Positions 10,119 to 40,896 are shown, counted from the first letter of the stretch. The stretch is DNA of 64,000 nucleotides from Minisyncoccota bacterium (GCA_937936355.1 CALDDM010000020.1:7767-71766); one strand, 5' to 3'. The notes: a model not told the origin generated them from the sequence alone. Numbers and translations: made by a program.

Positions 10119-10190
10119 TCCGCGGTAGCTCAGTGGTAGAGCAGTTGGCTGTTAACCAATTGGTCATAGGTTCGAATCCTATTCGCGGAG
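10119..10190 (+). tRNA. trnN: tRNA-Asn (anticodon GUU)
   Basis: TCCGCGG..GGCTGTTAACC..ATAGGTTCGAATCCTAT-TCGCGGA-G. Its last 12 nt overlap the stop and final codons of the minus-strand recombinase. Coordinates anchored on the ORF-track stop at 10179 (+/-1). Confidence 0.9.
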
Positions 10191-11792
10191 CAACATAGGA
10201 TTTTTGGCATGTATTTTGTCAAAAGTCCTTTTGTTTAGAGAAAAAACAGGTTCCAACCTTACATTATGCTCGTCCATTACCTTGCATGACTGTTGGATAG
10301 CGTATAATTGCTTTTTTGGCTCTATAACAACCTTTTTATCTAGGATGTAGCGGTTCCAACCTAAGTCCTTGATGACAGATCTTTTTGTAGGCGTGTCACC
10401 ATCCTTGAAGCGTTTTTTAGCAAACTCAGCAAAATCTAGATGCTCTTCAAGCTCCTCGATATAGGTTGTAGGTTCTTGCTCTAGACTTGTGAGTGACTTT
10501 TCAATCTTCGCTTTCTTTATTTCCATCTCTGACTGTTTCTTGCTAAACGCTTCTTTGGTAAGCTCGCCATCACTGCGCATATCAATGAGCTTACTAATCT
10601 GATTATCGATTTTGATAATTTGCTTTCGCATTGCATCTTTCTCTGACTCTTGGAGATCGCCTTTCTCTTCAAGTTTCTCTTTTGCTCGCTCTACAGCCCA
10701 CTGGGTAAACTCTGGTGGGATCCAAATGTCACCAAGCATCTTCTCAACCTTATCTTCGATGTCGCTCTCATGCACAGATCCCTGTGAGCATTTATATGAC
10801 TTAGATTTCTTTGTGCAGACATAGAATTTATACTCATGCACGTTGCCATTCTTTTGTTTCTTGGTTTTGTTGTGACCAGTGATGCCCATGTCGCACTCAC
10901 CACAGGCGAAAAGTTTCTTGTAGGGGAGATTATCGACCTTTACTTGGCTTGTTGGGGGTTTTTCGGAAAAGATCCCTTGAAGTTTTTCATATTCTCGCCA
11001 CGTAATCATTTTTTCATGTTTTCCTATATGCCAATTCCCAGATCCTTCTGGATACTCAAATTTTCCTGCATAGAAGGGTAGGGTAAAGATTTTATACAAA
11101 GTAGATCGTGAAAGTGGCTTGCGAGTCTTTGGGTTGATAAGCACACCTTTCTCCTGACTCTCTTTGAAGAGTTGTGCGATTGTTACCTCCTCATCAAGGA
11201 GTCGTCTGAAATATCCTTGAATGATAGGAAAAGCGATCGGATCCTTTTCGATAATTTTGAAACCCTTCTCCTTATCTGGCGTTGAGAGATAGCCTGGCAA
11301 GGCATGACCAGGACGCCACCCTTTCTCTGCCTTTTGAGAGAGTCCACGCTTTACGTCCTCACTTAATTCTTTGATAAATTGGTTTGCCATACCAAGCTCA
11401 ACTGCCATCATGAGAACGTTGTCAGTAGGATAGTAGCTTCTTCCAGGTGTTGAGATATGAGAAATGATGCTTTGCTGGATGTGCCAACTTACCTTTCCGC
11501 CATCGATAGGATTACGAGCGAGGCGATTAAGTTTCCAGCAGAGAATGCCATCTGCCTCACCTTTCTCGATACGAATGATCATCTCATTGAAAACTTCACG
11601 ACCAGGTGCTTTGGCAGATCGTGCTTCGCTAAGAATATCAAGAATTTCCAATCCTTCGTCTGTAGCAAACTTTTTCAGTGCAGTGATCTGATCGTTGATT
11701 GAAGCCATTTGACGATCTTCACTCTCGGATGACTTGCGAGCATACAGAAAGTATTTTTTTGCTTTCTTCATATATTTGATATTACCTCTCAC
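10179..11792 (-). CDS. large serine recombinase (resolvase/invertase N-domain, recombinase domain, zinc ribbon, coiled coil)
   Basis: YARKSSESEDRQ..SINDQ catalytic-Ser region, WKLNRLARN, CGECDMG..FYVCTKK zinc ribbon. ATG 11771 (MKKAKKYF) is the likelier start. Paralog of 24917-26557. Confidence 0.9.
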   Translation of the reverse strand: MRGNIKYMKKAKKYFLYARKSSESEDRQMASINDQITALKKFATDEGLEILDILSEARSAKAPGREVFNEMIIRIEKGEADGILCWKLNRLARNPIDGGKVSWHIQQSIISHISTPGRSYYPTDNVLMMAVELGMANQFIKELSEDVKRGLSQKAEKGWRPGHALPGYLSTPDKEKGFKIIEKDPIAFPIIQGYFRRLLDEEVTIAQLFKESQEKGVLINPKTRKPLSRSTLYKIFTLPFYAGKFEYPEGSGNWHIGKHEKMITWREYEKLQGIFSEKPPTSQVKVDNLPYKKLFACGECDMGITGHNKTKKQKNGNVHEYKFYVCTKKSKSYKCSQGSVHESDIEDKVEKMLGDIWIPPEFTQWAVERAKEKLEEKGDLQESEKDAMRKQIIKIDNQISKLIDMRSDGELTKEAFSKKQSEMEIKKAKIEKSLTSLEQEPTTYIEELEEHLDFAEFAKKRFKDGDTPTKRSVIKDLGWNRYILDKKVVIEPKKQLYAIQQSCKVMDEHNVRLEPVFSLNKRTFDKIHAKNPMLLRE

Positions 11793-11914
11793 TTAGCGGA
11801 TAGTCTGACTTACCCAGTCCACACAAAGGCGAAATGGCAGACTACCCACGAAGTGAGGCAATAAAAAATGCCATTGTATATTTAGACTAGGTAAGTAATT
11901 ACATTATACCATGC

Positions 11915-12052
11915 TTATCGGTAGTCTTCTGAGACTAAATCCACGATGAAATCTGAGTAGTATTCAAGAATATCAAACAACTCCTCATCCGTAAGGATGA
12001 TCTCATACTTCTTGCGAAGCAAGAAATTGAGTTGTTTGATATCGCTATTCAT
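11915..12052 (-). CDS. 45-aa protein conserved upstream of both recombinases (candidate directionality/accessory factor)
   Basis: Own translation MNSDIKQLNFLLRKKYEIILTDEELF... aligns by eye with the 50-aa ORF 26596-26748 (IKQ, L(T/D)DE). Same position in both elements. Confidence 0.4.
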   Translation of the reverse strand: MNSDIKQLNFLLRKKYEIILTDEELFDILEYYSDFIVDLVSEDYR

Positions 12053-12099
12053 TTTTTTAATTCCTGTGGTAAGTCATGATTTTTGAGTTCGAATATCAA

Positions 12100-12345
12100 C
12101 TAGTGAAGGTCATGCTTGTACACAAGGTGCTCGATGTAGCCCATTGCAGTTTCAATACTTTTAAAACGCAAATAACCTCCAGTGCAATTTTCCACATACT
12201 CTCCGTCAAGGGTATCTACTACGATGTACCTCTCAATTTTTTTCTCGTCATATTTAGATTTTTCATCTGGTTTTTTATCTTTATCTAATTCATATACAGT
12301 TGAATGACTCACTTCAACAAGGATTTCATAGTTTAGGTAGATCAT
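12100..12345 (-). CDS. hypothetical protein (element 1)
   Basis: 81 aa, tightly packed in the minus-strand operon. Confidence 0.5.
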   Translation of the reverse strand: MIYLNYEILVEVSHSTVYELDKDKKPDEKSKYDEKKIERYIVVDTLDGEYVENCTGGYLRFKSIETAMGYIEHLVYKHDLH

Positions 12346-12442
12346 AATTTTAGTAGTTAGTTATTATACGCAGTTTAAAAATACTTGTGGTTCAAATAGC
12401 TAATACACAAATATCAACCGAAATACATAGGGATAGCACATT

Positions 12443-13021
12443 TTATTCAAGTTTTATGGGGCGTTCTGATGAACCTGGCTCACCTATGAGCTTTAAGTAT
12501 CGGAGGTACTGTTTTGTGGGTTTTCCCTGGTAATACTCTTTTTTGACTCGCTTTTCGTAGTATCTGTCTGCCTTATCAAGCTGATCAAGACCTGATAGAA
12601 ACGTGTTCTTCGAAGGTTTTTTCTCGTTGCAACTCTCGTAGGTCAGATTATGGCAAGAGCGACACCGAAAGCGTGAGTCACGAAGGTAGAGGGTGTACAC
12701 TTTTTTCCCACAAAAGCTTCCATTTTCTTTGCGTCCGCATTGTAAGAACCATCTCTCGTTGCCAAAATGGCACTTCTGAGGAACGAGGTTAAGTTTGTAG
12801 TTCATGGAGTAAAAGTGCTCGCCACTGTGAAGAATATCGTAGCGAAAACTGATAAATGGATGCGGTAAGACCGTGTTGACTTTAACGCTAATTTCATCTG
12901 TATTGCAGTCAGACCAACTTATCTGAAAAGACGCTTCCTGATTTAGATTTAGCAGTCCATTTTCGGCGAGAAACTTGATGGAAATCGATCGCCTTTGATT
13001 TTCAATAAGAGATTTGCTCAT
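12443..13021 (-). CDS. hypothetical Cys-rich (zinc-finger-like) protein
   Basis: 192 aa with CHFG..C..CGKK..CRSCHN. Starts 5 nt after the upstream gene stop. Confidence 0.55.
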   Translation of the reverse strand: MSKSLIENQRRSISIKFLAENGLLNLNQEASFQISWSDCNTDEISVKVNTVLPHPFISFRYDILHSGEHFYSMNYKLNLVPQKCHFGNERWFLQCGRKENGSFCGKKVYTLYLRDSRFRCRSCHNLTYESCNEKKPSKNTFLSGLDQLDKADRYYEKRVKKEYYQGKPTKQYLRYLKLIGEPGSSERPIKLE

Positions 13022-13025
13022 AGAT

Positions 13026-14360
13026 TTAGTCGATTATGGGTATCTCATCAACGTACACATCATGCACATCGTACACATCATGCATCGTCTCATCGGTAAT
13101 GCCGTAGCGCTCTTTCCACATTTCGATCCTTTTTTCATTCAGTACAAAATTGATCACGATACCTTTGCTGATCCTCCTTGTTTGGAGTCTCAGTTTTTCT
13201 TTTAAACAATATCCAACTTTTCGAGGTGTGAGCTGGTCCCTTTCGTCATAATTTCGATTAACACAGTCTGTTATATCCTTGATGAGAACCTCTGGTAGAT
13301 TGCTATGAGTTCTTAGGTGGAGAATTGCCATAACAATGTCGCATTCCCACGACATATCTCGATGCTGAATAAGCGCATCATTGTACTGTGTGATAAACTC
13401 CGTTAAATCATTTCGTACATCAGGGCTCTTAATGATTGAGAATAGTGGGAGGACAATTTGTTGTAGGCGGGGATGTACGTCAGCAACAAGATCCTGAGAA
13501 AAGTTCATATCCTGAAAATAGTGATCCATCCGCCACTTGAGGAGTTTATTCCTTAGATTGAGACTTTCTTTGTAAAAATTATCATTAAGAGTTCGAGGTA
13601 TATCATCTCGTACCTTCCTTTCGCCCATCTCTTCCACAAGAAATCTACTTTCCAATGCTGTGTCAGCGTATCTTTCTCGTGTTGCGATAATTTTTGGACA
13701 AAATACGTCGAATGATTTTACATCAAAGGTTCCTTTACCTTCAGTTTTCAAGACAGGAACATTTTTTTGATAGCCAGAGTTTAAGACTTTGACCATATCA
13801 GTGGTCATATCAGAGGATCGTAAATCTGCCTCATCGACTATAAGCGTCCCCTTGAACTGTTGGATGATGCGAAATATGGGGCTAGAAGACGTTGCGCCAC
13901 CTGTAAACATTGGCTTGTAACAAACATTGCCGATGGTTTGTAAAAAACGAGATTTCCCACTTCCATAGTCACCCATTGCCCTGAGATATGGGATATCGTT
14001 GAATTTTTCGTAGAGCCATGTAAAGAGAACGTAATACGTTGCGATTTGCTCGTAAACTGGAGAGACATCGAGGTATTTGTGGATGTAATTTTTAATCTCT
14101 AGAAGCAATTCTTGCTCACTCCCATAGTCTTCTAGGCGCGAAGGCAGGCGAACTACATTGCACTCTAATAGGTTATGCTTACTGCTCATAGGGATATATG
14201 TCTCTTCATCAATTTCAACCTCTCTCAGGTTGGTTTTGAGAGCTCCAGAGCGGTTTATAGAGACAAACGACGTTGCTCTTGTCTTTTGATCAAAGACCAT
14301 TTCGTAAAGTGTGTTATGCGATCGTATGCAGGTTGTAGATATTGGCTTTTTTTCATTCAT
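13026..14360 (-). CDS. P-loop NTPase, putative element replication/helicase-like ATPase
   Basis: Walker A GDYGSGKS, Walker B LIVDEAD. C-terminal HDVYDVHDVYVDEI repeat. Confidence 0.55.
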   Translation of the reverse strand: MNEKKPISTTCIRSHNTLYEMVFDQKTRATSFVSINRSGALKTNLREVEIDEETYIPMSSKHNLLECNVVRLPSRLEDYGSEQELLLEIKNYIHKYLDVSPVYEQIATYYVLFTWLYEKFNDIPYLRAMGDYGSGKSRFLQTIGNVCYKPMFTGGATSSSPIFRIIQQFKGTLIVDEADLRSSDMTTDMVKVLNSGYQKNVPVLKTEGKGTFDVKSFDVFCPKIIATRERYADTALESRFLVEEMGERKVRDDIPRTLNDNFYKESLNLRNKLLKWRMDHYFQDMNFSQDLVADVHPRLQQIVLPLFSIIKSPDVRNDLTEFITQYNDALIQHRDMSWECDIVMAILHLRTHSNLPEVLIKDITDCVNRNYDERDQLTPRKVGYCLKEKLRLQTRRISKGIVINFVLNEKRIEMWKERYGITDETMHDVYDVHDVYVDEIPIID

Positions 14361-14391
14361 ATTTGTTCATTTACATTGTTATTTTCTTTAT

Positions 14392-14658
14392 TTATCTCTT
14401 CATGCTGTAGATGCGAGATTTGAGATTTTTGCGAGTATTCGAGTATTTGAGAGGTGGAACTTTTATGGTGTCGTCCCAAAACTTCGAAACAATTTTTGAT
14501 ATTCTGGCATTAGCCTCAAAATGGAACATTGCTCGATTGCCAGTCAGTGAAATTTTCATTAAGGAACAATTCTCACAAATCAGTGTTGAGGCAAGATCCA
14601 AGTCGTGAGTTTGATACGCCGCAGAAACCTGTGATCGTTCATTTTTTTTCATACGCAT
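14392..14658 (-). CDS. small phage/plasmid-type protein (DUF5659-like by recollection)
   Basis: 88 aa. The THDLDLASTLI..FHFE pattern recalls DUF5659. Not searchable here. Confidence 0.35.
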   Translation of the reverse strand: MRMKKNERSQVSAAYQTHDLDLASTLICENCSLMKISLTGNRAMFHFEANARISKIVSKFWDDTIKVPPLKYSNTRKNLKSRIYSMKR

Positions 14659-14783
14659 TGATAAATTGATTAAGAAAACATGTTTATGTTCTATATCATG
14701 TCATCCCACGCAGTTGGGAAGCAAAATAAAAAAAGCCCATAGAATTGGGCTTTTGTCTCTCAAGTAAGAGATCTGCGTGGGGG

Positions 14784-15860
14784 CTATGTGGGATCTTTAT
14801 ATAAATGTCGGTACTTAGAGTTGACATTTACAAATAAGATAGTCTTAACTTCGACTTTATGTGTAAACTCTATCTTTTCTTTGTTTAGTGATTTTTGAAC
14901 TATTTGCTTTTTCTGTAAGCTATTTTCTCTCATATATTTTTTGATAGAAGTGCGTTCATAAAATTCGTTATTGATGCTACGAACAACATTATGATCATAG
15001 TCACACAGAGAACTCTGTGAATTTTTTGCCAACATAAATAAGCTTTTCATATATGTTTCTGATTTATTCCAAGTCAGGTTGATAGGAATTGGTTTTTCAA
15101 AAACTTCATCCAAAACAATGTATACTCGCCCTTTAGGGTTTGTCGATATATGAACGAAAGTTATTGACTCTAGATGGCGTTTTTTAGTGCATTTTACGGG
15201 GACGCTAAAATCATCTTTTTTAGCAACTCCTATAGGTGTTTCAGTTAAGTAAGAAATTTCGTCTATTAAGGACTGATGATTGTGTATCTCTACTTTTATC
15301 AGCGAGGCTTTAGGCTTAAATTTTTCGACTTTGAAAAGTAAATTCTTGAATGATTTAGCTGGATCATATTTTTTTGATGTCCCTAATTTTGCCATTGAGA
15401 GCGAAGTGAAAGGGCGTTTATAGGCAGTCCACTTGATCGCGCCATTAAGAGTAATATCTTCTATGATTTCGAGGAGTGTGATGTACAAATCTTCATGACT
15501 TTTCTTGTCTAAATTTGGTGATTTGAAATAGCTATTGATAAGTTTGATCATTTGATCTGTGAGTACCCACAATTCAGCCACATCCTTTTCCTCATCAAGT
15601 CTTATATTGAAAAGGTCTTTATAGTCTGAAATCCAAAAGGTGTGCCCTTCCTTACGATCAATATGAATGTAGTTTTCCTCAGCCAGTTTTAAGACAATAC
15701 TTTTTTGATCATCTGGAGAAAAGTCGTAACTAACGGAGTCATCACGCACGATAAATCCGCTACAATAGTAGCGCACAGATCGTTTTGGATTTATCGCAAA
15801 AACTCCGTCGATATCTCGCTTTACATATTCGATTTTCTCTTCCGGGCTCATATATTTCAT
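14784..15860 (-). CDS. hypothetical protein (element 1)
   Basis: 358 aa. Hairpin AAAAAGCCCA..TGGGCTTTT downstream at about 14739-14757. Confidence 0.6.
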   Translation of the reverse strand: MKYMSPEEKIEYVKRDIDGVFAINPKRSVRYYCSGFIVRDDSVSYDFSPDDQKSIVLKLAEENYIHIDRKEGHTFWISDYKDLFNIRLDEEKDVAELWVLTDQMIKLINSYFKSPNLDKKSHEDLYITLLEIIEDITLNGAIKWTAYKRPFTSLSMAKLGTSKKYDPAKSFKNLLFKVEKFKPKASLIKVEIHNHQSLIDEISYLTETPIGVAKKDDFSVPVKCTKKRHLESITFVHISTNPKGRVYIVLDEVFEKPIPINLTWNKSETYMKSLFMLAKNSQSSLCDYDHNVVRSINNEFYERTSIKKYMRENSLQKKQIVQKSLNKEKIEFTHKVEVKTILFVNVNSKYRHLYKDPT

Positions 15861-16074
15861 CTACATGTACATAGTGTACATTGTGAACGTCTAGAGGGTA
15901 GATGTCAAAATATAGAAACCGAAATCTGGACTGGATCTTGAAAATATCATGATGAAATGCTAGTCTGAAAGTACAACTTAGCGAGCCCAACCGCCTATAT
16001 GGTGAGTGGTTCAAAAAAACCGACTAAAGTGAAAAACTCCTTGTGAGGGTTACTTTAGTCGGTCATATCCAGGA

Positions 16075-16494
16075 ATGGGTATGGAGCTAGCAATAGCTCG
16101 CCTTGCAGGGAGCTTTTTGTTTTTAAGAAAAAATATGTTCAAAAGACTTCGACTGATTTTAAGTGTTATTCTCATACTGTTGATTGTGTATACGACAATC
16201 CTCTACTTCATCGATCGATCAGCATTTCAAGCAATGAGAGATCATGATGAACTTTGCACAGACTATTTGGAAAGTGTTGATCAGTATTGGTCATCCGATC
16301 GAGATGATTGGTACAAAGAAAACTGCGAGCTAGATGGATCAAGGTATTCAGTTGCAGACTCCAAAACAACACGTTGGAAAGTAGTAGGTGCTAATCTGGA
16401 TAACGCTATAGCATATATTATGTATGTTGTCGGAGGGTTTATCATGCTCTACGTTGGTAAATGGATCGTCGCAGGAAAAGAAGAAAAGTATTGA
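16075..16494 (+). CDS. membrane protein, hypothetical
   Basis: 139 aa with N- and C-terminal hydrophobic helices. Alternative start ATG 16135. Confidence 0.5.
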   Translation: MGMELAIARLAGSFLFLRKNMFKRLRLILSVILILLIVYTTILYFIDRSAFQAMRDHDELCTDYLESVDQYWSSDRDDWYKENCELDGSRYSVADSKTTRWKVVGANLDNAIAYIMYVVGGFIMLYVGKWIVAGKEEKY

Positions 16495-16512
16495 TTTTAA
16501 GCCAAAAAAATG

Positions 16513-16578
16513 CTATACTGTGTATGTAAGTTAACAGCAAAACGTCAGTGCTGACGTTAACTGCACAGTATAGTTTTT
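16513..16578 (+). terminator. long nested hairpin terminator
   Basis: CTATACTGTG..(ACGTCAG-TG-CTGACGT)..CACAGTATAG followed by TTTTT. Confidence 0.65.
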
Positions 16579-16591
16579 CTCAAAAAAGATG

Positions 16592-16674
16592 GGTTCCTGG
16601 GAAATCTGCATGGACACCTTACGAACTATACTACTAACCCTACAAAGCGGTTGGGAGATTTCACCCAGTCACGA
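16592..16674. repeat. internal junction: degenerate M2-type arm followed by an M1-orientation arm
   Basis: CCTGGGAAAT...TTACGAACTAT (16592-16629), then GGTTGGGAGATTTCACCCAGTCACGA (16649-16674). CCCAGTCACGA is the exact reverse complement of TCGTGACTGGG in the 19827 and 30828 arms. Confidence 0.45.
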
Positions 16675-16790
16675 GGTATAAATCGTGAGGAGAGTTTAAG
16701 TACTCTTTATGTGTGAAAACTCTCAGTCGCTTTTTTGTGTGGTCGGTCCCAAAGAAGTGACCACCACATAAGCTAGTCAAAGAAAATACT

Positions 16791-30825: not shown

Positions 30826-30827
30826 GA

Positions 30828-33777: not shown

Positions 33778-34278
33778 ATGACTATTATTCATACGTTAAA
33801 ACATATGGAAAGAACAATAAGGTCCATTCTTGGAGGATTATTTCTTGGGGCTGTTGCACTTACTCTTCTGCCGATTTTCATATTTGGAGGCATCTACTTC
33901 ATGGAGCAAAGGGACATCAAGCAGATGGGTAAAGTAGAGCCTGGTGACCCATGCTATATGAGGAAGAAATTTATCGGAAAGGGTGGGCATGATATGGATT
34001 ATGAGGTTAGAGGGGATCGTGTGTGTATACTGTTTCACCAAAGTGGATCATTTGCGTATTTTAAAACACTAGAAGATGCAGACTCTGCTACATTTACTAA
34101 AATTGATGGTGGCTATTTTATAGATAGGAATAGAGTGTATTACGATCAAGGGAATATCGTAGTTGGCGCAAATCCTCTTATGTTTAAATCTGTTGGGAAT
34201 GGTTATTACACAGATGATGTTCATTATTTTTATGATGGACGAAAGGTTGATGTAGATTTTGATGAGAACCACGATTGA
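33778..34278 (+). CDS. membrane-anchored DKNYY-like repeat protein
   Basis: FIDRNRVYYDQG..GYYTDDVHYFYDGRKV motifs. Confidence 0.55.
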   Translation: MTIIHTLKHMERTIRSILGGLFLGAVALTLLPIFIFGGIYFMEQRDIKQMGKVEPGDPCYMRKKFIGKGGHDMDYEVRGDRVCILFHQSGSFAYFKTLEDADSATFTKIDGGYFIDRNRVYYDQGNIVVGANPLMFKSVGNGYYTDDVHYFYDGRKVDVDFDENHD

Positions 34279-34316
34279 GGTGATCTCCTTATTGATGATC
34301 AGTTATCTGGATAGGT

Positions 34317-34403
34317 GGTTCCAATCTAGTCCCATTGCGGGAGCTAGTAAAAAAGTCCCATCAAATGGGGCTTTTTTTGTGGGCGTGAATAGGACGCTTG
34401 AAC
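34317..34403. repeat. composite M1-hairpin-M2 unit (copy f)
   Basis: GGTTCCAATCTAGTCCCATTGCGGGAGCTAGTAAAAAAGTCCCATCAAATGGGGCTTTTTTTGTGGGCGTGAATAGGACGCTTGAAC. Confidence 0.75.
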
Positions 34404-34429
34404 TATTGTCATTTTATGGATAAATTTTC

Positions 34430-34460
34430 TTGACATGGGTGTCAGGCCCATGTGTATAAT
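34430..34460 (+). promoter_or_regulatory. MerR-type promoter P1 (19-bp spacer with operator dyad)
   Basis: TTGACA, 19 bp, TATAAT. Perfect dyad ACATGGG (34433-39) / CCCATGT (34447-53) inside the spacer. Confidence 0.7.
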
Positions 34461-34504
34461 TCTAGGTATGGTACCTCGTATCACTAAATAATAATAAAAC
34501 AAGA

Positions 34505-34702
34505 ATGAAGAATACATTTCTTGCTGCTGTGCTGGTCGTTGGAGCTGTCACCCTCACAGGTTGTGGGTCTGGTGAAAAAGCAATGACTGAGGCAGAGCAT
34601 GCAGCATCACTTGGTCTCACAGAGGAGGAGTATCAAGAGAATAAAGAGGCAGCAGCTCGTATGAATATGGATGTCGACGAGCATGTGAAAATGGGACACT
34701 AG
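34505..34702 (+). CDS. small lipoprotein, Met/His/acidic-rich (possible metal-binding)
   Basis: Lipobox LTGC. Tail MNMDVDEHVKMGH. Downstream of P1. Confidence 0.6.
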   Translation: MKNTFLAAVLVVGAVTLTGCGSGEKAMTEAEHAASLGLTEEEYQENKEAAARMNMDVDEHVKMGH

Positions 34703-34765
34703 TCACTATCTCATGTGATAAAGGCGCACACTTTAAGTGCGCTTTTTGTATTGTGCATAATTTAC

Positions 34766-34796
34766 TTGACATGGGTGTTAGACCATACTTTACACT
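34766..34796 (+). promoter_or_regulatory. MerR-type promoter P2 (19-bp spacer)
   Basis: TTGACA-TGGGTGTTAGACCATACTT-TACACT. The left half-site is identical to P1. Confidence 0.6.
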
Positions 34797-34843
34797 ATGA
34801 GATATTAATGCAACATACAGCACATATTGAAAAACGCAACCAT

Positions 34844-36133
34844 ATGAACTATCCCAAGATAAAAAATGCGAGCAGGAAGAATAAGGTGATTTTGTTTTTG
34901 GCTTTCGTACTGTTAGCTGTGATCATAGTTTTTGGAATATATTTTGTAAAAGGCGATACTAGTACATCTTCCCAAATGATGGTTGGTGACAGCATGCAAG
35001 ATAAGATGGTAAAGAAAGAGATTGCAACTGTGAGTCCTGTGGAGCGCAAGAACGCAAACTCTCTCATGCTTGTGGGTACAGTGATCTCCAATGAGTCAGC
35101 GATGATCTATCCCCGACGTGAGGGTATTGTCAAAGACATCTATGTAGATATTGGGGACACTGTAGAAGCTGGAGAGGTGATCGGAACACTTTTCCCTCGT
35201 GGCGTTGAGGGTCAGGCTGATGCAGTCATTTATGAGGCGCAGAAAAAGAGAGACTTGGCGGATACTATTGTGGATGCAAGAGAAGATCTGGGTGATGCAG
35301 CGAGGGATGCAGCAGACGAAAGAGACATTTCAGATGAAGAGGAGGAGTTGGTAGACGAGGAGCAGGATTTACTGGAAGCAACTGCACTTGAAAACTTGAT
35401 CATTGCAGAGGCAAATCTCAGCAAAGAAATCATTATCCAAGGACATACAAAGTTGATCTCTCCATTCTCGGGAACGATTGCAAAGCGCTATGTTGCCGTC
35501 GGTGAAAGCATTACACCATCAAAACCAGTGTTTAGCTTGGTTGACGTGCCAACGCATTTAGCTCATAAGGCCGAGAATGAAATACATTTTAGTGTGTCAG
35601 AAGATCTCATGGATGAGCTAAGTATCGGTGATGAAGTAGCGTTTTTCCTTGGGAAAGATGAGTCAAAGGTACACACTGCTAAGGTCACACGGATCAGTCC
35701 GCAAATTGATAAGATGACACATCAATTTTCTGTGCAAGCTGCAGTGCCAGATGATCTAAACGTTCCACACAATGCAAAGGTTCGTGTGCGTTTTGTGACA
35801 TCTGACGAGCGCATTTACAGTATTCCATCATCGAGTATCAAGCGAATTGATGATGAGAATTTTGTATGGATTTTGGATAGTGATGATAGCACTACTAGGA
35901 CAACGGTCCATGTGTTTGGAGATGATGGAGAATTTGCAGAGGTGACAGGCAGTATCGACTCTACGTCAAAAATCATAAAGCGTGTGACATCGGAAATGAT
36001 GGAGAGTGCGAAGGATGTAGAGATGATGCAGATGAATGATGAAGAAGTGATTACTGATGATGCGGATATGGAGATGACTGCAGAGAAAGGCAAGGGACCG
36101 ATTACAATAGAGGGTAACATGCAAGCACCATGA
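34844..36133 (+). CDS. efflux RND periplasmic adaptor (membrane fusion protein)
   Basis: Track ORF starts at 34715, but P2 lies inside that extension. ATG 34844 gives MNYPKIKN.. plus a TM anchor. Lipoyl/beta-barrel-like VGDTVEAGEVIG. Stop overlaps the RND start. Confidence 0.7.
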   Translation: MNYPKIKNASRKNKVILFLAFVLLAVIIVFGIYFVKGDTSTSSQMMVGDSMQDKMVKKEIATVSPVERKNANSLMLVGTVISNESAMIYPRREGIVKDIYVDIGDTVEAGEVIGTLFPRGVEGQADAVIYEAQKKRDLADTIVDAREDLGDAARDAADERDISDEEEELVDEEQDLLEATALENLIIAEANLSKEIIIQGHTKLISPFSGTIAKRYVAVGESITPSKPVFSLVDVPTHLAHKAENEIHFSVSEDLMDELSIGDEVAFFLGKDESKVHTAKVTRISPQIDKMTHQFSVQAAVPDDLNVPHNAKVRVRFVTSDERIYSIPSSSIKRIDDENFVWILDSDDSTTRTTVHVFGDDGEFAEVTGSIDSTSKIIKRVTSEMMESAKDVEMMQMNDEEVITDDADMEMTAEKGKGPITIEGNMQAP

Positions 36134-39100
36134 TTGATTTTCTCATAAAAAAAGCCCTTGATAATGCCTTTCTTACAATCATTGCATTTGCCGTCATCAT
36201 CGGAGCAGGCATCGTTGTACTAGGAAAGACACCTGTGGATGCCCTTCCTGATCTCAGTGAAAATCAGGTTGTAATCATGACACAGTGGTCAGGGCAAAGT
36301 CCACGTAATATCGAGGATCAAGTGACGTACCCACTGACAGTGAGTATGCAGGGGCTAGCTGGTGTACGTGATGTGAGAGCAATGTCGCAGGTCGGTATTT
36401 CGATGGTGACCGTGATCTTTGAGGATAACATCGACATCTATTTCGCACGTGATCGTGTGTCAGAGAGACTGGCTACAGTCAGGGCAGATTTGCCTGGTGG
36501 TGTGACGCCAGTTCTTGGTCCAGATGCGACAGGGCTTGGACAGATTTTCATGTATACACTTGAGAGTGATGCGCATACACTTACGGAGCTTAGATCATTG
36601 CAAGACTTCACGGTCCAGTACGCTCTTGAGAGCATCTCTGGTGTTGCAGAAGTAGCGCCTGTTGGCGGTTATGTGAAGTCCTATCAGGTGGTGCTAGATC
36701 CTGTGAAGCTTTCACAATATGGTATTAGCATCTCTACTGTCATGCAGGCAATTCAAGGTGGCAATAATAATGTCTCTGGAAAAGTTATCGAAGTCGGTGA
36801 TGAAGAGATTGCTGTAGAGGGAGTAGGTTTCTTCACATCTTTAGAAAGCCTTGATAACCTCACTCTCCGTGCAGGGGGAGACGGTGCAGTTGTAAAAATA
36901 TCAGATGTGGGACGTACTCGACTCTCGGGAAATGTCAGACGGGCAGTCCTTGCTGACGAAGAGGAAGAAAAAGTTGGTGGCATTGTCGTCATGCGCTACG
37001 GAGAGAATCCACTTGAAGTCATTGAGAGTGTGAAGGCTCATATTGCTGAGACCCAGAAAACATTGCCAGAGGGTGTGACAATCGTTCCATTCTATGATCG
37101 CACCACACTCATCGAAGCTGCAATTGATACTCTCCGCAGTGTTTTAACCTTGGAGATCATCATTACAGCACTTATTCTCGGAGTCTTTTTGTGGCATTTT
37201 GGATCGACAATTATCGTGGTACTTTCCCTTCTTGTGGGTGTGCTTCTGACGTTTATCTTTATGTATGCATTTGGCATACCATCCAATATCATGAGCCTTG
37301 GTGGTATCGCTATTGCGATTGGGACGATGGTGGATAGTGCGATCGTGATCAGTGAAAACGCCTACAGAAAACTCCTTGAGCAAAAAGCAAGGACACTTGC
37401 AGATCGTGTACGTATCGTAAAAGAAGCGACGCTTGAAGTGGGTAAGCCTGTTGTTTTTGCAATCCTCATCATCATCATTTCCTTTCTCCCAATCTTTAGC
37501 CTCGAAGGCATGGAAGGAAAACTCTTTGCGCCACTTGCCTTTACCAATGTCTTTGCAATGCTTGGCGCTCTCATCGCAGCACTCTTTCTTGTGCCACTTC
37601 TGAGCACCTATTTCCTCAGAGGAAAGCTACGTGAGGATCATGAAATATGGGTAGTGGTTACGCTACAAAAACTCTACAGACCTCTGCTTGCAAAAGCACT
37701 TCACTTCCGCAAAGTGACACTAGGGATCGCTGGAGGACTCCTCGTCATTGGTGGCATACTTTTCACACAGCTCGGCTCAGAGTTTATGCCAGAACTCGAT
37801 GAAGGATCGATCATGTATATGCCTATGACCGTGCCTGACGTATCTGAGGCACGTGCCACTGAACTTCTTCTCGAAACCAATGAGATCATTGCCTCTATCC
37901 CAGAAGTAGAAAAAGTTGTGGGAAAAGCAGGTCGTGCAAACTCAGCAACCGATCCAGCACCGCTTGCAATGCTTGAGACGTTTATTACACTCAAGCCACG
38001 AGATCAGTGGCGAGAGGGATATAGCAAGGGTGACATCATCAGAGAGATGAATCGTAATATCAAGATCGATAATCTCTGGAGTGGATTTACACAACCCATT
38101 ATTGGAAGGATTGATATGCTCTCTACTGGGATACGTGCGCAAGTCGGTATCAAGATCTTTGGTGATGATCCGCTTGTATTGGAAGAGCTTGCTATTGAGG
38201 CGGAAGACCTCATGGGTGAGATCCGTGGTGGTCTTGGGATTGCAGCAATCCGCACGACAGGCCTCAGGTATCTCGATATTGAATTGAATGATGAGCGTCT
38301 TGCACTCTACGGTGTTCAGAGGAAAGATGTGCTGCAAGCGATTGCTGTAGGTGTAGGAGGTGCTACTGCTGCAGTGACGGTTGACGGGCGTGAGCGATAC
38401 AACATCGAAGTGAAACTGGCGCAAGAGTATAGACAGGACATCGAAGACATCAAATCACTGACGGTACCAAGCGTGTCAGGTGGTGATATTCTCCTGGGTA
38501 GTGTCGCTGATATTGAGCTGACCAACGGTCCTGCAACAATTAACAGTGAGAATGGCGTCATCAGAAGTGCTGTGCAGATGAATGTCTCTGGTCGTGATCT
38601 CGTATCATTTGTAGATGAGGGTCGCATGCATCTTGAAAAAAACCTTGCATTACCTGATGGGTATTATGTTGAGTGGGCTGGTCAGTATGAAAACCAATTA
38701 CGTGCCAAAGAGCGGCTCATGATCATCGTGCCGATTGTGATCGGCATCATTTTTCTCCTCCTTTATCTTGCGTATAGGGATTTTGGACTAGTATCAATTG
38801 TGGCGGTAAGTATTCCTTTGAGTTTTGTGGGAGGGATCATTGCATTGTTCGCTGCAGATTTCAATCTCTCGGTAGCAGTGTGGGTAGGGTTTATTGCGCT
38901 GTTTGGCAATGCAGTGGAGACCGGTGTCGTCATCGTTGTATATCTTGAAAATGCTTACAAAAAACGCTTTGGGAAGTTGGAAGAAAATGACGATGGGAGT
39001 GATGATGTATTACCTATAACACGTGAAGGTATCTATGAAAGTGTTATGGAGGGAGCGACACTTCGCTTGCGCCCCGTTCTCATGACAGCGTTTACCTCAG

Positions 39101-39264
39101 TACTGGGTCTGTTACCGATGATTACGGCGACAGGCGTAGGGGCGGAAGTGCAGAAGCCACTTGCTCTTGTCGTTGTGGGAGGCTTGATCACTTCCATACT
39201 CCTGACACTTGTCGTGATCCCTGTGCTTTTCTCATATCTACGAGAAAGGCAGATATATAAGTAA
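36130..39264 (+). CDS. heavy-metal-efflux type RND permease (CusA/CzcA family)
   Basis: 1044 aa with 12-TM RND architecture. Length and context (MFP, MerR) fit the HME-RND family. Confidence 0.85.
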   Translation: MIDFLIKKALDNAFLTIIAFAVIIGAGIVVLGKTPVDALPDLSENQVVIMTQWSGQSPRNIEDQVTYPLTVSMQGLAGVRDVRAMSQVGISMVTVIFEDNIDIYFARDRVSERLATVRADLPGGVTPVLGPDATGLGQIFMYTLESDAHTLTELRSLQDFTVQYALESISGVAEVAPVGGYVKSYQVVLDPVKLSQYGISISTVMQAIQGGNNNVSGKVIEVGDEEIAVEGVGFFTSLESLDNLTLRAGGDGAVVKISDVGRTRLSGNVRRAVLADEEEEKVGGIVVMRYGENPLEVIESVKAHIAETQKTLPEGVTIVPFYDRTTLIEAAIDTLRSVLTLEIIITALILGVFLWHFGSTIIVVLSLLVGVLLTFIFMYAFGIPSNIMSLGGIAIAIGTMVDSAIVISENAYRKLLEQKARTLADRVRIVKEATLEVGKPVVFAILIIIISFLPIFSLEGMEGKLFAPLAFTNVFAMLGALIAALFLVPLLSTYFLRGKLREDHEIWVVVTLQKLYRPLLAKALHFRKVTLGIAGGLLVIGGILFTQLGSEFMPELDEGSIMYMPMTVPDVSEARATELLLETNEIIASIPEVEKVVGKAGRANSATDPAPLAMLETFITLKPRDQWREGYSKGDIIREMNRNIKIDNLWSGFTQPIIGRIDMLSTGIRAQVGIKIFGDDPLVLEELAIEAEDLMGEIRGGLGIAAIRTTGLRYLDIELNDERLALYGVQRKDVLQAIAVGVGGATAAVTVDGRERYNIEVKLAQEYRQDIEDIKSLTVPSVSGGDILLGSVADIELTNGPATINSENGVIRSAVQMNVSGRDLVSFVDEGRMHLEKNLALPDGYYVEWAGQYENQLRAKERLMIIVPIVIGIIFLLLYLAYRDFGLVSIVAVSIPLSFVGGIIALFAADFNLSVAVWVGFIALFGNAVETGVVIVVYLENAYKKRFGKLEENDDGSDDVLPITREGIYESVMEGATLRLRPVLMTAFTSVLGLLPMITATGVGAEVQKPLALVVVGGLITSILLTLVVIPVLFSYLRERQIYK

Positions 39265-39277
39265 TAAATAAAACACT

Positions 39278-39775
39278 ATGAAAAAAACAACATTGGCTAT
39301 AGCCATGGGAACAGTTCTGCTTGTTGGTTGCACTACAAAAAAAGAAGTTTCGACTCAAAAAGAATTAGAGGGGTTGGCACCAGAAACAATTGCTCGTGTG
39401 GAAAGTCAGAATAAAGAGACAGCAGAACTTGCACAAAATGACTTCCGTGATGACATAAAAAACGAAACGAGCACGGTCAGTGGCGAATACACAGGAGACG
39501 GATACTACGAAGTTCACGATGGTACAGTAAAAGAGGATATTGATTTTAAGTTCGTCATTGAAAATGATGTGGTTGCATCTTTTGAAATGCTTGGGGAGGC
39601 TAGCGTGCCTGACAGTGCGTGGCATCAGGAGCTTTTTATGGAGAAAGCAACACCAAAAATTGTTGGGAAGGACATCGCAACACTTGAGATTGACGTGGTC
39701 TCAGGTGCTTCAGCAACAACAGAAGGTTTCAGAAAGGCACTTCAGGACGTGAGAGAGCAAGTGTCAAAGAGCTAA
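39278..39775 (+). CDS. lipoprotein with FMN-binding-like domain
   Basis: Lipobox LVGC. C-terminal VVSGASATTEGFRKAL. Confidence 0.55.
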   Translation: MKKTTLAIAMGTVLLVGCTTKKEVSTQKELEGLAPETIARVESQNKETAELAQNDFRDDIKNETSTVSGEYTGDGYYEVHDGTVKEDIDFKFVIENDVVASFEMLGEASVPDSAWHQELFMEKATPKIVGKDIATLEIDVVSGASATTEGFRKALQDVREQVSKS

Positions 39776-40152
39776 ATTTTTAGCTTTGTGGGCTTTACTC
39801 TACAATCACGCTTCTCAAAATCTTCGATCAGTTTTTTGTGATGTTTCTGGATTTTCTTTAATTCTGTGATTTTCTCGGAGATATTTACAAGGTTCTCCCT
39901 GAGGTGTGGAAGCATTGATTGGTGTTTGCACGAGGACCACGAAAACTTCTCTTGGAGGTCCTTGATCTCCTCGAGGCTAAATCCTAAGTGACGTGACCCT
40001 ACGATGAAAAGAATTTTATCGAGATCTTCTTCAGAAAAAACTTGATAACCATTTGAGGGATCTTTCTCAGGAGACACAAGACCTTGCTTGATATAATGGC
40101 GAAGAGTATCTCGTGAGATGTGCGCCTTTTCTTGGATTTCTTTACTGAGCAT
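39772..40152 (-). CDS. MerR-family transcriptional regulator
   Basis: ISRDTLRHYIKQGLV..GYQVFSEEDLDKILFIVGSRHLGFSLEEIK, followed by a coiled-coil dimerization helix and Cys residues. Confidence 0.85.
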   Translation of the reverse strand: MLSKEIQEKAHISRDTLRHYIKQGLVSPEKDPSNGYQVFSEEDLDKILFIVGSRHLGFSLEEIKDLQEKFSWSSCKHQSMLPHLRENLVNISEKITELKKIQKHHKKLIEDFEKRDCRVKPTKLKI

Positions 40153-40173
40153 AGAGATTTTTTTAGAGAAAGA

Positions 40174-40204
40174 TTGACATGGGAGTAAGACCCACCTATA
40201 TAAT
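40174..40204 (+). promoter_or_regulatory. MerR-type promoter P3 (19-bp spacer), divergent from merR
   Basis: TTGACA-TGGGAGTAAGACCCACCTA-TATAAT. Confidence 0.6.
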
Positions 40205-40226
40205 GACTATAACATATAAAAAAACT

Positions 40227-40754
40227 ATGGATAAAAAACAGAACGTGCACTATGCGCCAGGAATACATCCTGTGAAAGAAAGGTGCTCTATAAAGGACTT
40301 TACGCCACTGATCATCGTGGCGATTGTAGTGACAGCATTCTCAGCTGTCATAATGTATGTGACAAATGGAGGATGGGAAATCTTTATGCGCATGTTTATG
40401 GCTGCATTTTTCCTCATCTTTGGTGGCTTGAAGCTTCTCAAGTTGTCACACTTTGCAACTGCCTATAGAAAGTATGATCTCATTGCAAAACACTCTCGAG
40501 TATATGCTCTGGCATACCCCTTTATTGAAATTGCTTTAGGAATTGGATATTTTGCAAATTTCATGCCAGCTATGGTGAATCTGGTGACTTTCATCATTAT
40601 GAGTATCGGTGCTTTTGGCGTGCTGCGAGTCCTCTATCGTGGTGAAAAGATTGTTTGTGCATGTATGGGGGCAGTATTCAAGATCCCGATGACAGGTGTA
40701 ACCCTTGGAGAGAATCTTCTTATGGCAGGAATGGCACTCATGACGATTATGTAA
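40227..40754 (+). CDS. MauE/DoxX-like membrane protein
   Basis: Four to five TM helices, with a CACMG motif near the C-terminus. Start moved to ATG 40227, downstream of P3. Confidence 0.55.
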   Translation: MDKKQNVHYAPGIHPVKERCSIKDFTPLIIVAIVVTAFSAVIMYVTNGGWEIFMRMFMAAFFLIFGGLKLLKLSHFATAYRKYDLIAKHSRVYALAYPFIEIALGIGYFANFMPAMVNLVTFIIMSIGAFGVLRVLYRGEKIVCACMGAVFKIPMTGVTLGENLLMAGMALMTIM

Positions 40755-40757
40755 TTT

Positions 40758-40852
40758 GGTTCGAACCTAGTCCCACTCAGGGAGCTAGCAATAAAAACAG
40801 CCCTATAGGGGTTGTTTTTTGTTGCTTACTTTGTAGCGCATAGGATTCGAGC
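40758..40852. repeat. composite M1-hairpin-M2 unit (copy g), right edge of the accessory region
   Basis: GGTTCGAACCTAGTCCCACTCAGGGAGCTA, then AAAAACAGCCCTATAGGGGTTGTTTTTT, then GCGCATAGGATTCGAGC. The reverse complement of the last part, CTCGAATCCTATGCGC, resembles the tRNA-Asn 3' end. Confidence 0.6.
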
Positions 40853-40896
40853 AGGGAAAGGGTCGGAAAACGATAGTTTTCCGTCTTAAAAAAGCT

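What the first reader, a model, noticed from the sequence alone, without database searches (positions are those of the whole stretch)
10119..40860. About 30 kb accessory array split into cassette-like blocks by a T-loop-core repeat tied to large serine recombinases
I found at least 10 copies of one repeat family between tRNA-Asn and 40.86 kb. The M1 form is GGTTC(C/G)AACCTAGTCCCATTGCGGGAGC. The M2 form is its imperfect reverse complement, TTTTTTCGTGACTGGGAATRGG..GTTGGAAC. Far-apart M1/M2 pairs bracket the two recombinase-bearing segments (10169-19858 and 24908-30860). Close M1/M2 pairs occur as roughly 90 bp M1-hairpin-M2 units at 33035, 34317 and 40758. The blocks between sites carry 1 to 6 unrelated genes each: a PPase-like to methyltransferase block, an NTase block, a DKNYY block and a MerR-RND block. 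Genes start soon after the M2 core; at 19859 the ATG abuts it directly. The layout resembles an integron cassette array, but the only recombinases present are serine-type and the core mimics a tRNA T-loop. I do not know of a described platform like this, so it may be a new gene-capture or decay architecture.
Basis: partly seen in the sequence, partly recalled or inferred. Interest (0 to 1): 0.85.

Follow-up and report, generated by a model that had tools for sequence, protein, structure and literature searches.

The report
tRNA-Asn island built by serine recombinases

Summary
The repeat family is real and confined to 10.2-40.9 kb. M1 is a 28-nt stand-in for the tRNA-Asn 3' end (GGTTC-N18-GGAGC; the tRNA has N13). 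M2 is an inverted tRNA-3'-like box placed after a terminator hairpin and just before a -10 box. A relative (L112) has the nearly empty locus: its tRNA-Asn is followed directly by the sequence found in the window at 40781-40846. So 10192-40785 is inserted DNA, in four blocks that each end in an M1. All ten recombinases sampled from this clade (32-73% identical to one another) abut a tRNA-Asn 3' end or an M1, with the same junction layout. The 5-bp length difference between M1 and the tRNA matches the published attP/attB half-site offset of serine integrases. A related contig has at least 10 units in 10.3 kb around single genes. There is no tyrosine integrase and no attC-like covariation, so this is not an integron. 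Best reading: tandem accretion at tRNA-Asn driven by serine recombinases, like tycheposons or SCC composite islands, with promoter-bearing cassettes that lack their own recombinase. Movement of these cassettes by the recombinases in trans is inferred, not shown.

The parts
10119..10191 (+). tRNA-Asn(GTT). Its last 23 nt (10169-10191, GGTTCGAATCCTATTCGCGGAGC) form the host-type (short, attB-like) half-site and the left boundary of the island.
   Evidence: empty-site comparison with L112
10179..11792 (-). Large serine recombinase LSR1. Its ORF ends ...LLRE* inside the tRNA: the stop codon TAG is the reverse complement of CTA in the T-stem.
10192..10258 (+). Left-end (P'-side) module of block A: terminator-like hairpin at about 10197-10229, then the palindrome-like motif GGTTCCAACC at 10249-10258, 57 nt after GGAGC. 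A second copy of the motif is at 10352.
10192..24935 (+). Block A (14.7 kb). Contains the LSR1 module (LSR1, three unknown ORFs, LOOT RNA, HD and NERD proteins), then M2 at 19827, then cargo: PPase-like, GNAT, a 151-aa ORF, EamA, degenerate M2 at 22121, a 649-aa ORF and a SAM methyltransferase on the - strand. Ends in M1 at 24908.
19827..19867 (+). M2 (T-run + GTGACTGGGAATAGGGTGTTGGAAC) followed by TGTATACT, an extended -10 box. The likely start of the PPase-like gene is 19874.
22121..22147 (+). Degenerate M2 copy between EamA and the 649-aa ORF.
   Evidence: family D7; E=3, weak
24908..24935 (+). M1 type A (28 nt). It is the right end of block A and the surrogate tRNA 3' end next to which LSR2 sits.
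24917..26557 (-). Large serine recombinase LSR2. The stop codon lies inside M1. The sequence right after GGAGCA (AGTCAGGAAACACCTCATACGAAGGGGTGTTTTT...) matches the one that follows the true tRNA-Asn in L097 and L098.
24936..33062 (+). Block B (8.1 kb). Contains hairpin 24940-24972, inner motif GGTTCGAAC at 24995-25003, the LSR2 module, M2 at 30828-30859, nucleotidyltransferase (NTP_transf_6), a 226-aa ORF and a terminator at 32768-32797. Ends in the diverged M1 at 33035-33062.
33063..34344 (+). Block C (1.3 kb). Contains hairpin 33067-33095, M2 at 33089-33120, a 177-aa ORF and a DKNYY-domain ORF. Ends in M1 at 34317-34344.
34345..40785 (+). Block D (6.4 kb). Contains hairpin 34349-34377, M2 at 34372-34403, MerR-type promoters, a 66-aa ORF, HlyD, an RND pump, FMN_bind, MerR on the - strand and MauE. 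Ends in M1 at 40758-40785. The block is conserved next to this locus in L108.
40786..40885 (+). Native flank downstream of tRNA-Asn (B' side): long hairpin AGCAATAAAAACAGCCC...GTTGCT, then the 5' part of a tRNA-Asn-like inverted-repeat structure, cut off just before the UDG gene.
   Evidence: L112 3597-3662 matches window 40781-40846 at 86%. The same flank follows M1 in the related contig, in L097 and in L098.

Best explanation
The region 10192-40785 is a genomic island anchored at tRNA-Asn. It was built by repeated site-specific insertion, most likely catalysed by a clade of large serine recombinases (LSRs) that is specific for the 3' end of tRNA-Asn.

Shown:
- The host site is the last 23 nt of the tRNA (GGTTC-N13-GGAGC) plus its native terminator hairpin.
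- Every inserted block ends on its right in M1, a 28-nt surrogate of that sequence (GGTTC-N18-GGAGC).
- Every block starts on its left, directly after GGAGC, with a terminator-like hairpin. A second GGTTSSAACC-type motif follows 50-60 nt further on. In LSR elements this motif lies inside the 3' end of the recombinase gene. In recombinase-less cassettes it is the outer end of M2, which sits just upstream of an extended -10 box that would drive the cargo.
- An M1-hairpin-M2 unit is therefore the junction between the right end of one block and the left end of the next.

Inferred:
- M1 is the attP-type (long) half-site and the tRNA end is the attB-type (short) half-site of the LSRs. The exact 5-bp difference is the offset described for serine integrases.
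- New blocks enter at the GGAGC junction and push older ones away from the tRNA.
- The small cassettes without a recombinase are moved in trans by the resident LSRs. Alternatively they are gained and lost by recombination between M1 copies.

Net effect: a co-oriented array of accessory genes, each with its own terminator and promoter, that differs between close relatives.
For: (1) Empty site. In L112 the tRNA-Asn ...GGAGC is followed directly by CAGCAATAAAAACAGCCC...GTTGCT plus a minihelix. The same sequence lies at window 40781-40846 (86% identity), directly after M1 at 40758.

(2) Further boundary cases.
- The related contig CALIRC010000030.1 carries MauE (91% aa identity) and an identical M1. 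It then has one extra NUDIX cassette [hairpin-M2-gene-M1 type B] before the same native flank.
- In L098 a PPase-like cassette with M2 upstream lies in a different context, and the native flank again follows an M1.

(3) Link to the LSRs.
- LSR1, LSR2, P0002-P0006, P0122, P0058 and P0141 are 32-73% identical to one another. All abut a tRNA-Asn(GTT) 3' end, a pseudo-3' end or a 28-nt M1, including one case outside the rpoD neighbourhood.
- LSR2-type elements have the same left-end sequence after a true tRNA (L097, L098) and after M1 (window). So M1 substitutes for the tRNA end, and the crossover lies at or near GGAGCA.

(4) Geometry.
- All 18 or so M1 copies are exactly 28 nt, although types A and B have very different middles. 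All tRNA copies are 23 nt.
- In about 200 kb of loci the 28-nt spacing gives 23 matches, against 6-10 at neighbouring spacings.
- Rutherford et al. 2013 place the zinc-ribbon-domain motif 5 bp nearer the centre in attB than in attP (PMC3783163).
- The LSR C-terminal domains match the A118 integrase (6DNW, E=2e-6).

(5) Junction layout. The hairpin plus the second motif at a fixed 57-60 nt is conserved in 9 of the 10 junctions (the tenth, L098, has the diverged GGTCCGAAC at the same place). The motif sits in two different reading frames (VRT versus RLEP), so it is conserved as DNA, not as protein.

(6) The repeats are absent from the 33 kb of core flanks in the window. They are rare in public data: one 10-kb contig among 185,579 species genomes and two short JGI contigs.

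(7) The related contig has at least 10 units in 10.3 kb, all co-oriented, around single unrelated genes (NUDIX, EamA, NTase, membrane proteins).
Against: - There is no direct evidence of recombination: no circular junctions and no population variants.
- Serine integrases as characterised recombine only attP with attB. Tandem accretion here would need the enzyme to use attL- or attR-like hybrid sites, as the Ccr recombinases of SCC are thought to do.
- I could not find a symmetric half-site at normal distance on the P' side. The only conserved motif there is 50-60 nt from the junction, too far for a standard 50-bp attP.
- M2 also occurs inside blocks A and B, and at 22121, without an M1 in front. 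M2 may simply be a promoter module.
- More distant relatives (L101, L103, L108, L110, L111) have the LSR next to tRNA-Asn but show no 28-nt M1 within the fetched flanks. The M1 rule is shown only for the window's near relatives and L105.
- Only two cassettes (MauE, PPase-like) are shared with other loci. The boundary evidence therefore rests on few comparisons.
- Homologous recombination between repeats could produce the same gains and losses.
Confidence: 0.7

Rival explanations
1. Passive scars. M1, M2 and the other tRNA-like pieces are decayed leftovers of old integrations (any integrase, including tyrosine types) and of duplications of the tRNA-Asn 3' end. The blocks are now immobile, and differences between relatives come from ordinary homologous recombination and deletion between repeats.
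For: True 23-nt partial tRNA-Asn copies exist in the minihelix structures downstream of the tRNA. L108 has a tyrosine recombinase inside its LSR element. Several copies are degenerate (33035, 22121). The RND block is conserved in L108, which points to old, stable content.
Against: All M1 copies keep exactly 28 nt and both end motifs while their middles diverge into types; decay should not preserve this. M1 is not a partial tRNA copy, because it is 5 nt longer. Intact LSR genes sit precisely on two of the junctions. The hairpin-M2 module is highly conserved between different cassettes.
Confidence: 0.15
2. Generic intergenic repeat. The unit of about 87 bp is a MITE/REP-like or terminator-promoter element of this lineage that spreads on its own between genes. 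The LSR elements merely use it, or the tRNA it resembles, as a landing site.
For: The unit combines a bidirectional terminator hairpin with a -10 box. It has inverted-repeat ends. M2-promoter modules occur inside blocks without M1 (19827, 30828, 22121).
Against: No copies occur in the 33 kb of core sequence in the window. Differences between relatives involve a whole gene plus a unit, never a unit alone. Solo M1 copies mark block ends. There are no target-site duplications. The family is nearly absent from 596 Gb of genomes and from the JGI metagenomes.
Confidence: 0.1
3. A true integron cassette array, or a cluster of attC sites without an integrase (CALIN). The units are attC sites (R'' about TTCCAAC, R' about GTTGGAA) recombined as folded single strands by an IntI encoded elsewhere.
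For: Cassettes are co-oriented and of 0.4-2.6 kb in the related contig. The outer boxes resemble RYYYAAC/GTTRRRY. Unit length of about 87 bp falls in the attC range.
Against: No tyrosine recombinase in the 64 kb. M1:M2 pairing is no better than column shuffles and shows no compensatory change. Predicted folds contain only the central hairpin. Type-B M1 copies do not pair with M2. The boundary between relatives is at the 3' end of M1, not at G|TT of the R'-like box. Cassettes carry their own -10 boxes.
Confidence: 0.03

Closest known systems
Tycheposons and other tandem islands at tRNA genes (Hackl et al., bioRxiv 10.1101/2020.12.28.424599; Islander-type tDNA islands, PMC4383910)
   Same: Site-specific integration beside a tRNA gene. 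Newer elements push older ones further into the island. tRNA-like repeats and recombinase-less remnants are scattered through the island. Cargo differs between close relatives. A minority of tycheposons (27 of 937) carry a large serine recombinase.
   Different: In this window the recombinases are serine type throughout. The tRNA is not split and restored: the junction is at its very 3' end. The repeats are 28-nt surrogates, 5 nt longer than the tRNA segment, not partial tRNA copies. Many units bound single-gene cassettes that carry a standard terminator-promoter module. The host is a CPR bacterium.
SCCmec / Enterococcus cassette chromosome composite islands (Ccr large serine recombinases at rlmH; PMC6222049, PMC10581047 appear; details from my own knowledge)
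   Same: Large serine recombinases insert elements at the 3' end of a conserved gene. Composite arrays are separated by short direct repeats of the integration site. Recombinase-less pseudo-elements are thought to be moved in trans. The recombinases tolerate hybrid sites.
   Different: The target is a tRNA, not rlmH. The recombinases are not shown to be Ccr relatives; the closest solved structure is the A118 integrase C-terminal domain. Units are much smaller, down to single genes. The left end carries a hairpin plus a second motif.
Integrons and CALINs
   Same: A co-oriented array of small, unrelated, mostly single-gene cassettes separated by imperfect inverted-repeat units of about 60-140 bp. 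Content varies strongly between relatives. There is a fixed primary insertion point: attI in integrons, the tRNA-Asn end here.
   Different: No IntI. No evidence of a folded single-strand site. The junction is at the 3' end of M1. Each cassette has its own promoter. The associated enzymes are serine recombinases.
Serine integrase att-site model from LI/A118 integrase (Rutherford et al. 2013, PMC3783163)
   Same: Two-motif half-sites in which the outer motif lies 5 bp nearer the centre in the host site than in the element site. Here GGTTC lies 23 nt (tRNA) or 28 nt (M1) from the end of GGAGC.
   Different: No standard symmetric partner half-site was found. A terminator hairpin and a distal palindromic motif (57-60 nt away) occupy the other side. 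The recombinase ORF itself crosses the junction.

Membership tests
Large serine recombinase (LSR) | N-terminal resolvase catalytic domain, followed by a recombinase domain and a zinc-ribbon domain with a coiled-coil insert | tested here: met
   PF00239 + PF07508 + PF13408 in both proteins. YxRxSS motif at the N-terminus (alignment). Match to the A118 integrase C-terminal domain 6DNW.
LSR integrative element | The recombinase gene lies next to one end of the element, at a specific chromosomal site that recurs in other genomes | tested here: met
   10 of 10 sampled clade members abut a tRNA-Asn 3' end or an M1 surrogate.
LSR integrative element | attP x attB recombination at a central dinucleotide, with directionality controlled by an RDF | not testable with these tools
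   Only the junction position (at or near GGAGCA) could be inferred from comparisons. HTH_17/MerR-like small genes are present in the L102 and L103 elements but not in the window.
Tandem tRNA-linked island (tycheposon-like) | Integration at a tRNA gene, with tandem elements separated by tRNA-derived repeats | tested here: met
   Four blocks between tRNA-Asn and its displaced native flank, each ending in a tRNA-3'-like M1.
Tandem tRNA-linked island (tycheposon-like) | The repeats are true partial copies of the tRNA, and a replication module (primase/helicase) is present | tested here: not met
   M1 is 5 nt longer than the tRNA segment and diverged in the middle. No primase was found in the window's elements. 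Toprim primase genes occur in the related elements L101 and L103.
Integron / CALIN | IntI tyrosine integrase with attI and Pc next to the array | tested here: not met
   No Phage_integrase hit in any of the 40 window ORFs scanned against Pfam; these include nearly all long non-nested ORFs.
Integron / CALIN | attC sites: imperfect palindromes that fold, with R''/L''/L'/R' boxes and pairing kept through sequence change | tested here: not met
   70.2% of cells paired against 70.3% in shuffles; 2 compensatory cells against 4.7 expected. MFE folds show only the central hairpin.
Integron / CALIN | Co-oriented, mostly single-gene cassettes | tested here: met
   Related contig: at least 10 units in 10.3 kb, with most ORFs on the same strand. 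Blocks C and D in the window.
MITE/REP-type dispersed repeat | Many copies dispersed through intergenic regions genome-wide, and target-site duplications | tested here: inconclusive
   None in the 33 kb of core flanks, and no duplications seen. The whole genome was not available.
SCC-type element | Ccr recombinases and integration in rlmH | tested here: not met
   The target is tRNA-Asn. No relationship to Ccr was established.

The most novel reading that the evidence does not exclude
CPR bacteria carry a serine-recombinase counterpart of the integron. Resident LSRs specific for tRNA-Asn would capture and release promoter-bearing, recombinase-less single-gene cassettes in trans. The att site would be unusually long and composite: a 28-nt tRNA-mimic half-site, the crossover at GGAGC, an embedded terminator hairpin, and a distal palindromic GGTTSSAACC box 50-60 bp away. 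The tRNA-Asn end would play the role of attI.
Probability: 0.35. Interest if true: 0.85.

Novelty: new variant of a known kind. Interest (0 to 1): 0.66.

Why it matters
Integrons are the only well-understood system that stockpiles single-gene cassettes at a fixed chromosomal site, and they depend on a tyrosine recombinase acting on folded single strands. This locus shows the same outcome apparently reached with serine recombinases and a tRNA end. It lies in CPR/Patescibacteria, whose routes of gene exchange are poorly known.

It also provides a natural series of site variants for one recombinase clade: a 23-nt host type and a 28-nt element type, the latter in sequence types A and B. These variants fit the structural attP/attB offset model. 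They could be tested directly, or used to find new tRNA-targeting integrases for genome engineering.

If the distal motif and the hairpin are part of the functional site, that would extend what a serine-integrase att site can look like.

Tried and rejected
- Integron/attC reading: rejected. No IntI, no covariation, and the boundary is at M1, not at the R'-like box.
- Known RNA families: Rfam finds only tRNAs and LOOT RNA in the window; the units match nothing.
- Hairpin-extrusion idea (M1 and the distal motif brought together if the hairpin loops out): not favoured. Across 10 junctions the linear distance is constant at 57-60 nt, whereas the distance with the hairpin removed varies from 21 to 30 nt.
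- Crossover inside the T-loop (GGTTC|SAAC): rejected. LSR2-type elements keep the same sequence after GGAGCA while the 23- or 28-nt segment before it differs.
- Insertion into the hairpin itself: rejected. The order of the hairpin halves around M1 and M2 is wrong for that.
- Exact-pattern scans: the genome collection gave 92 stretches, almost all single chance matches, and only one related contig. The metagenome collection gave two short real contigs. The viral collection gave none.
- Exact-protein look-ups for LSR2 and UDG returned only contigs from one other sample (ERR9287626) with the same arrangement. RpoD was not on record at the ORF start I used.
- PADLOC found no defence system in the unknown ORFs of the two recombinase modules.
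- A search for 28-nt M1 copies at the right ends of more distant LSR elements (L101, L103, L108, L110, L111) found none within the fetched flanks.
- The M1-like match at window 1828-1855 has no hairpin or M2 after it and is at chance level: 5 matches against 1.8 expected, 4 of them the true copies.
- Organism names could not be obtained for the window's own proteins.

Full report
**1. The observation**

The window reads dnaG (6571-8382), rpoD (8428-9774), tRNA-Asn(GTT) (10119-10191), about 30 kb of mixed genes, then a uracil-DNA glycosylase gene on the minus strand (40897-41517) and housekeeping genes.

The repeat family is real.
- M1 lies at 24908, 33035 (diverged), 34317 and 40758.
- M2 lies at 19827, 30828, 33089 and 34372, with a weak copy at 22121.
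- All copies are on the + strand.
- Shuffled sequence gives no matches to either consensus.
- No further copy lies in the 33 kb outside 10-41 kb.

Two complete units of about 87 bp (M1, an A-run/stem/T-run hairpin, M2) are at 33035-33120 and 34317-34403. Both recombinases are typical large serine recombinases, LSRs. They are only 34% identical to each other. No tyrosine recombinase was found among the 40 window ORFs scanned against Pfam.

**2. What M1 is**

M1 aligns with the last 23 nt of the tRNA (GGTTCGAATCCTATTCGCGGAGC). It shares the outer GGTTC(S)AA and inner (C)GGAGC blocks but is 5 nt longer.

Every M1 I could collect is exactly 28 nt from GGTTC to GGAGC. That covers about 18 copies from the window, a related contig, L097, L098 and L105. 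The middle falls into very different sequence types:
- type A: CTAGTCCCAYTS
- type B: TAGAGTYCAYGAC
- others

Every true tRNA-Asn copy is 23 nt. In about 200 kb of collected loci the 28-nt spacing gives 23 matches, against 6-10 at neighbouring spacings.

**3. Link to the recombinases**

I fetched the surroundings of eight further members of the clade. They are 40-73% identical to their nearer window LSR and come from different samples and organisms. With the two window LSRs, all ten genes end directly against one of three things:
- a tRNA-Asn 3' end (LSR1 in the window, L097, L098, L103, L108, L110, L111; L111 is in a different gene neighbourhood);
- a pseudo-3' end 100 nt after the intact tRNA (L101);
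- a 28-nt M1 (LSR2 in the window, L105).

The junction has one layout throughout:
- GGTTC-N13 or N18-GGAGC, then A;
- a terminator-like hairpin of about 30 nt;
- a palindrome-like GGTTSGAACC starting 57-60 nt after GGAGC (recognisable in nine of the ten; in L098 it is diverged to GGTCCGAAC).

Each recombinase ORF runs across this region. Eight of the ten end ...LLR(E/G/R)*. The LLR is encoded by the reverse complement of the acceptor strand, and the TAG stop comes from the T-stem.

The distal motif lies in two different reading frames: V-R-T in LSR2-like proteins and R-L/F-E-P in LSR1-like proteins. It is therefore conserved as DNA, not as protein.

LSR2-type elements carry the same sequence after GGAGCA whether a true tRNA (L097, L098) or M1 (window 24908) precedes it. 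So M1 stands in for the tRNA end, and the exchange point is at or next to GGAGCA, not in the T-loop.

**4. Where the blocks end**

Three comparisons bear on this.

(a) L112, a relative with 90% identical RpoD, has the nearly empty locus.
- Its tRNA-Asn is interrupted by a group I intron-like insertion homologous to the Rfam-confirmed intron of L098, here with an HNH-like ORF.
- It ends ...GGAGC and is followed at once by a long hairpin (CAGCAATAAAAACAGCCC...GTTGCT) and a tRNA-Asn-like minihelix.
- That flank is 86% identical to window 40781-40846, which follows M1 at 40758.
- Hence everything from 10192 to 40785 lies between the tRNA and its native flank.

(b) The contig CALIRC010000030.1 is labelled Ca. 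Pacebacteria. It was the only real hit among 185,579 species genomes.
- It has MauE (91% aa identity) with an identical M1.
- One extra cassette follows (hairpin, M2, NUDIX gene, M1 type B), and then the same native flank.
- The contig holds at least 10 units in 10.3 kb. All are co-oriented and spaced 0.4-2.6 kb apart, around unrelated small genes.

(c) In L098 the PPase-like gene lies in a different context. Its M2 is upstream and an M1-like end is downstream. The native flank again follows an M1.

The window therefore divides into four blocks, each starting with a hairpin and ending with an M1:
- A: 10192-24935
- B: 24936-33062
- C: 33063-34344
- D: 34345-40785

In A and B the recombinase module sits between the left hairpin and an internal M2. 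Block D (MerR, RND pump, MauE) is also present next to the tRNA-Asn locus in L108, so it is old.

**5. What M2 is**

M2 is a near-complete inverted copy of the tRNA 3' segment: reversed, it reads GGTTCCAA-CG-TCCTATTC.... In 12 of 14 copies TA(T/C)A(A/C)T follows 3-9 nt after its GGAAC end, usually with TG upstream. In several cassettes the start codon is 6 nt after that box, which suggests leaderless transcripts.

The hairpin and M2 together are the best conserved part of the units. Pairing between M1 and M2 within a unit is no better than expected from column composition and shows no compensatory change. Single-strand folds contain only the central hairpin. So the inverted symmetry is better read as two copies of a protein-recognition motif than as a folded attC-like site.

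M2 corresponds in position to the distal motif of the recombinase elements (50 nt against 57-60 nt from the junction). I cannot tell whether it serves recombination, transcription or both.

**6. Mechanism**

- Shown: insertion at the tRNA end; the standard block ends; the constant association with this LSR clade.
- From published knowledge: in serine integrases the outer (zinc-ribbon-domain) motif lies 5 bp nearer the centre in attB than in attP half-sites (Rutherford et al. 2013, PMC3783163). The C-terminal domains of these LSRs resemble the A118 integrase.
- Inferred: the tRNA end (23 nt) is the attB-type half-site and M1 (28 nt) the attP-type half-site carried at the right end of each incoming piece. 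Successive pieces enter at the GGAGC junction. Pieces without a recombinase are moved in trans, or are lost and gained by recombination between M1 copies.
- Weak points: characterised serine integrases do not use hybrid sites. No ordinary symmetric partner half-site is visible. M1 was not found at the right ends of the more distant elements within the fetched flanks.

**7. Comparison with known systems**

The closest described concept is tandem integration at tRNA genes with tRNA-derived repeats, as in tycheposons, a few of which carry LSRs. Among serine-recombinase systems the closest are the SCC/ECC composite islands. Integration into tRNA genes is usually ascribed to tyrosine integrases (PMC4383910). 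The array resembles an integron in layout only; it fails the integron tests.

A paper on gene exchange in Patescibacteria that I checked mentions neither recombinases nor tRNAs. I found no description of this system in the held library, but that search was limited.

The host is probably a Moranbacteria-like CPR bacterium. The best named RpoD relatives and many LSR relatives carry such names. This is an inference from names given by the sources.

**8. Verdict**

The repeats are real and are not chance. The feature is best described as a serine-recombinase-built island at tRNA-Asn with integron-like cassettes: a new variant of a known kind. Whether it is an active gene-capture system for single cassettes remains open.

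Noticed in passing
window 15984-16099 (+); also L097 6441-6558 (-) and L105 8093-8208 (-): LOOT RNA (Rfam RF03000, 63-70 bits against a gathering score of 46) lies inside three different serine-recombinase elements of this clade. In L097 and L105 it sits next to an RDD-domain gene; in the window it sits next to an unannotated 358-aa ORF. This orphan RNA motif therefore appears to be cargo of these CPR integrative elements.
   Followed up: partly
L098 6708-7044; L112 about 3006-3562; probably L099 and L103: In several relatives the tRNA-Asn gene that serves as the integration site is interrupted in the anticodon loop by a group I intron. Rfam RF00028 scores 59.9 bits in L098. L112 has a homologous insertion at the same position with an HNH-like 101-aa ORF. 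The window's tRNA-Asn has no intron.
   Followed up: partly
L112 3640-3716; L101 (rc) after the tRNA; related contig rc 1245-1330; L097/L098 distal ends; truncated copy at window 40826-40885: A conserved tRNA-Asn 'minihelix' lies downstream of the tRNA: an inverted copy of the acceptor/T-stem, a loop of about 36 nt (or a longer variant of about 95 nt), then a direct 23-nt pseudo-3' end. It serves as a second insertion point (L101, the related contig, L098). Its origin and any RNA-level role are unexplained.
   Followed up: partly
window 34430-34460, 34766-34796, 40174-40204: Three copies of a promoter-like repeat, TTGACATGGG-N4-AG-N-CCCA..TATAAT, with a long palindromic spacer. They lie in front of the small ORF/HlyD-RND genes and of MauE, next to a divergent MerR gene. 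This looks like a MerR-type operator set. It is conserved in L108.
   Followed up: no
window 10352-10361: A second exact GGTTCCAACC lies inside the LSR1 coding region, 103 nt beyond the one at 10249. Purpose unknown.
   Followed up: no
L097 1872-5377: The LSR2-like element in L097 carries a Gabija-like gene pair (an AAA_15/OLD-type TOPRIM ATPase plus a UvrD helicase). These elements therefore carry anti-phage defence cargo in relatives.
   Followed up: no
L098 561-839 (rc orientation: just upstream of M2 of the PPase-like cassette): A GIY-YIG endonuclease ORF is inserted between the minihelix region and M2. Its stop codon lies inside the M2 box. It is possibly a homing-type insertion into the array.
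   Followed up: no
window 719-2813 and tRNA-Gly/tRNA-Pro at 5441-6134: An AEP-like primase gene (2118-2813) and a TrmB-type regulator lie upstream of two further tRNA genes. This may be another small integrated element. An M1-like 28-mer at 1828 has no hairpin or M2 after it and is at chance level.
   Followed up: partly
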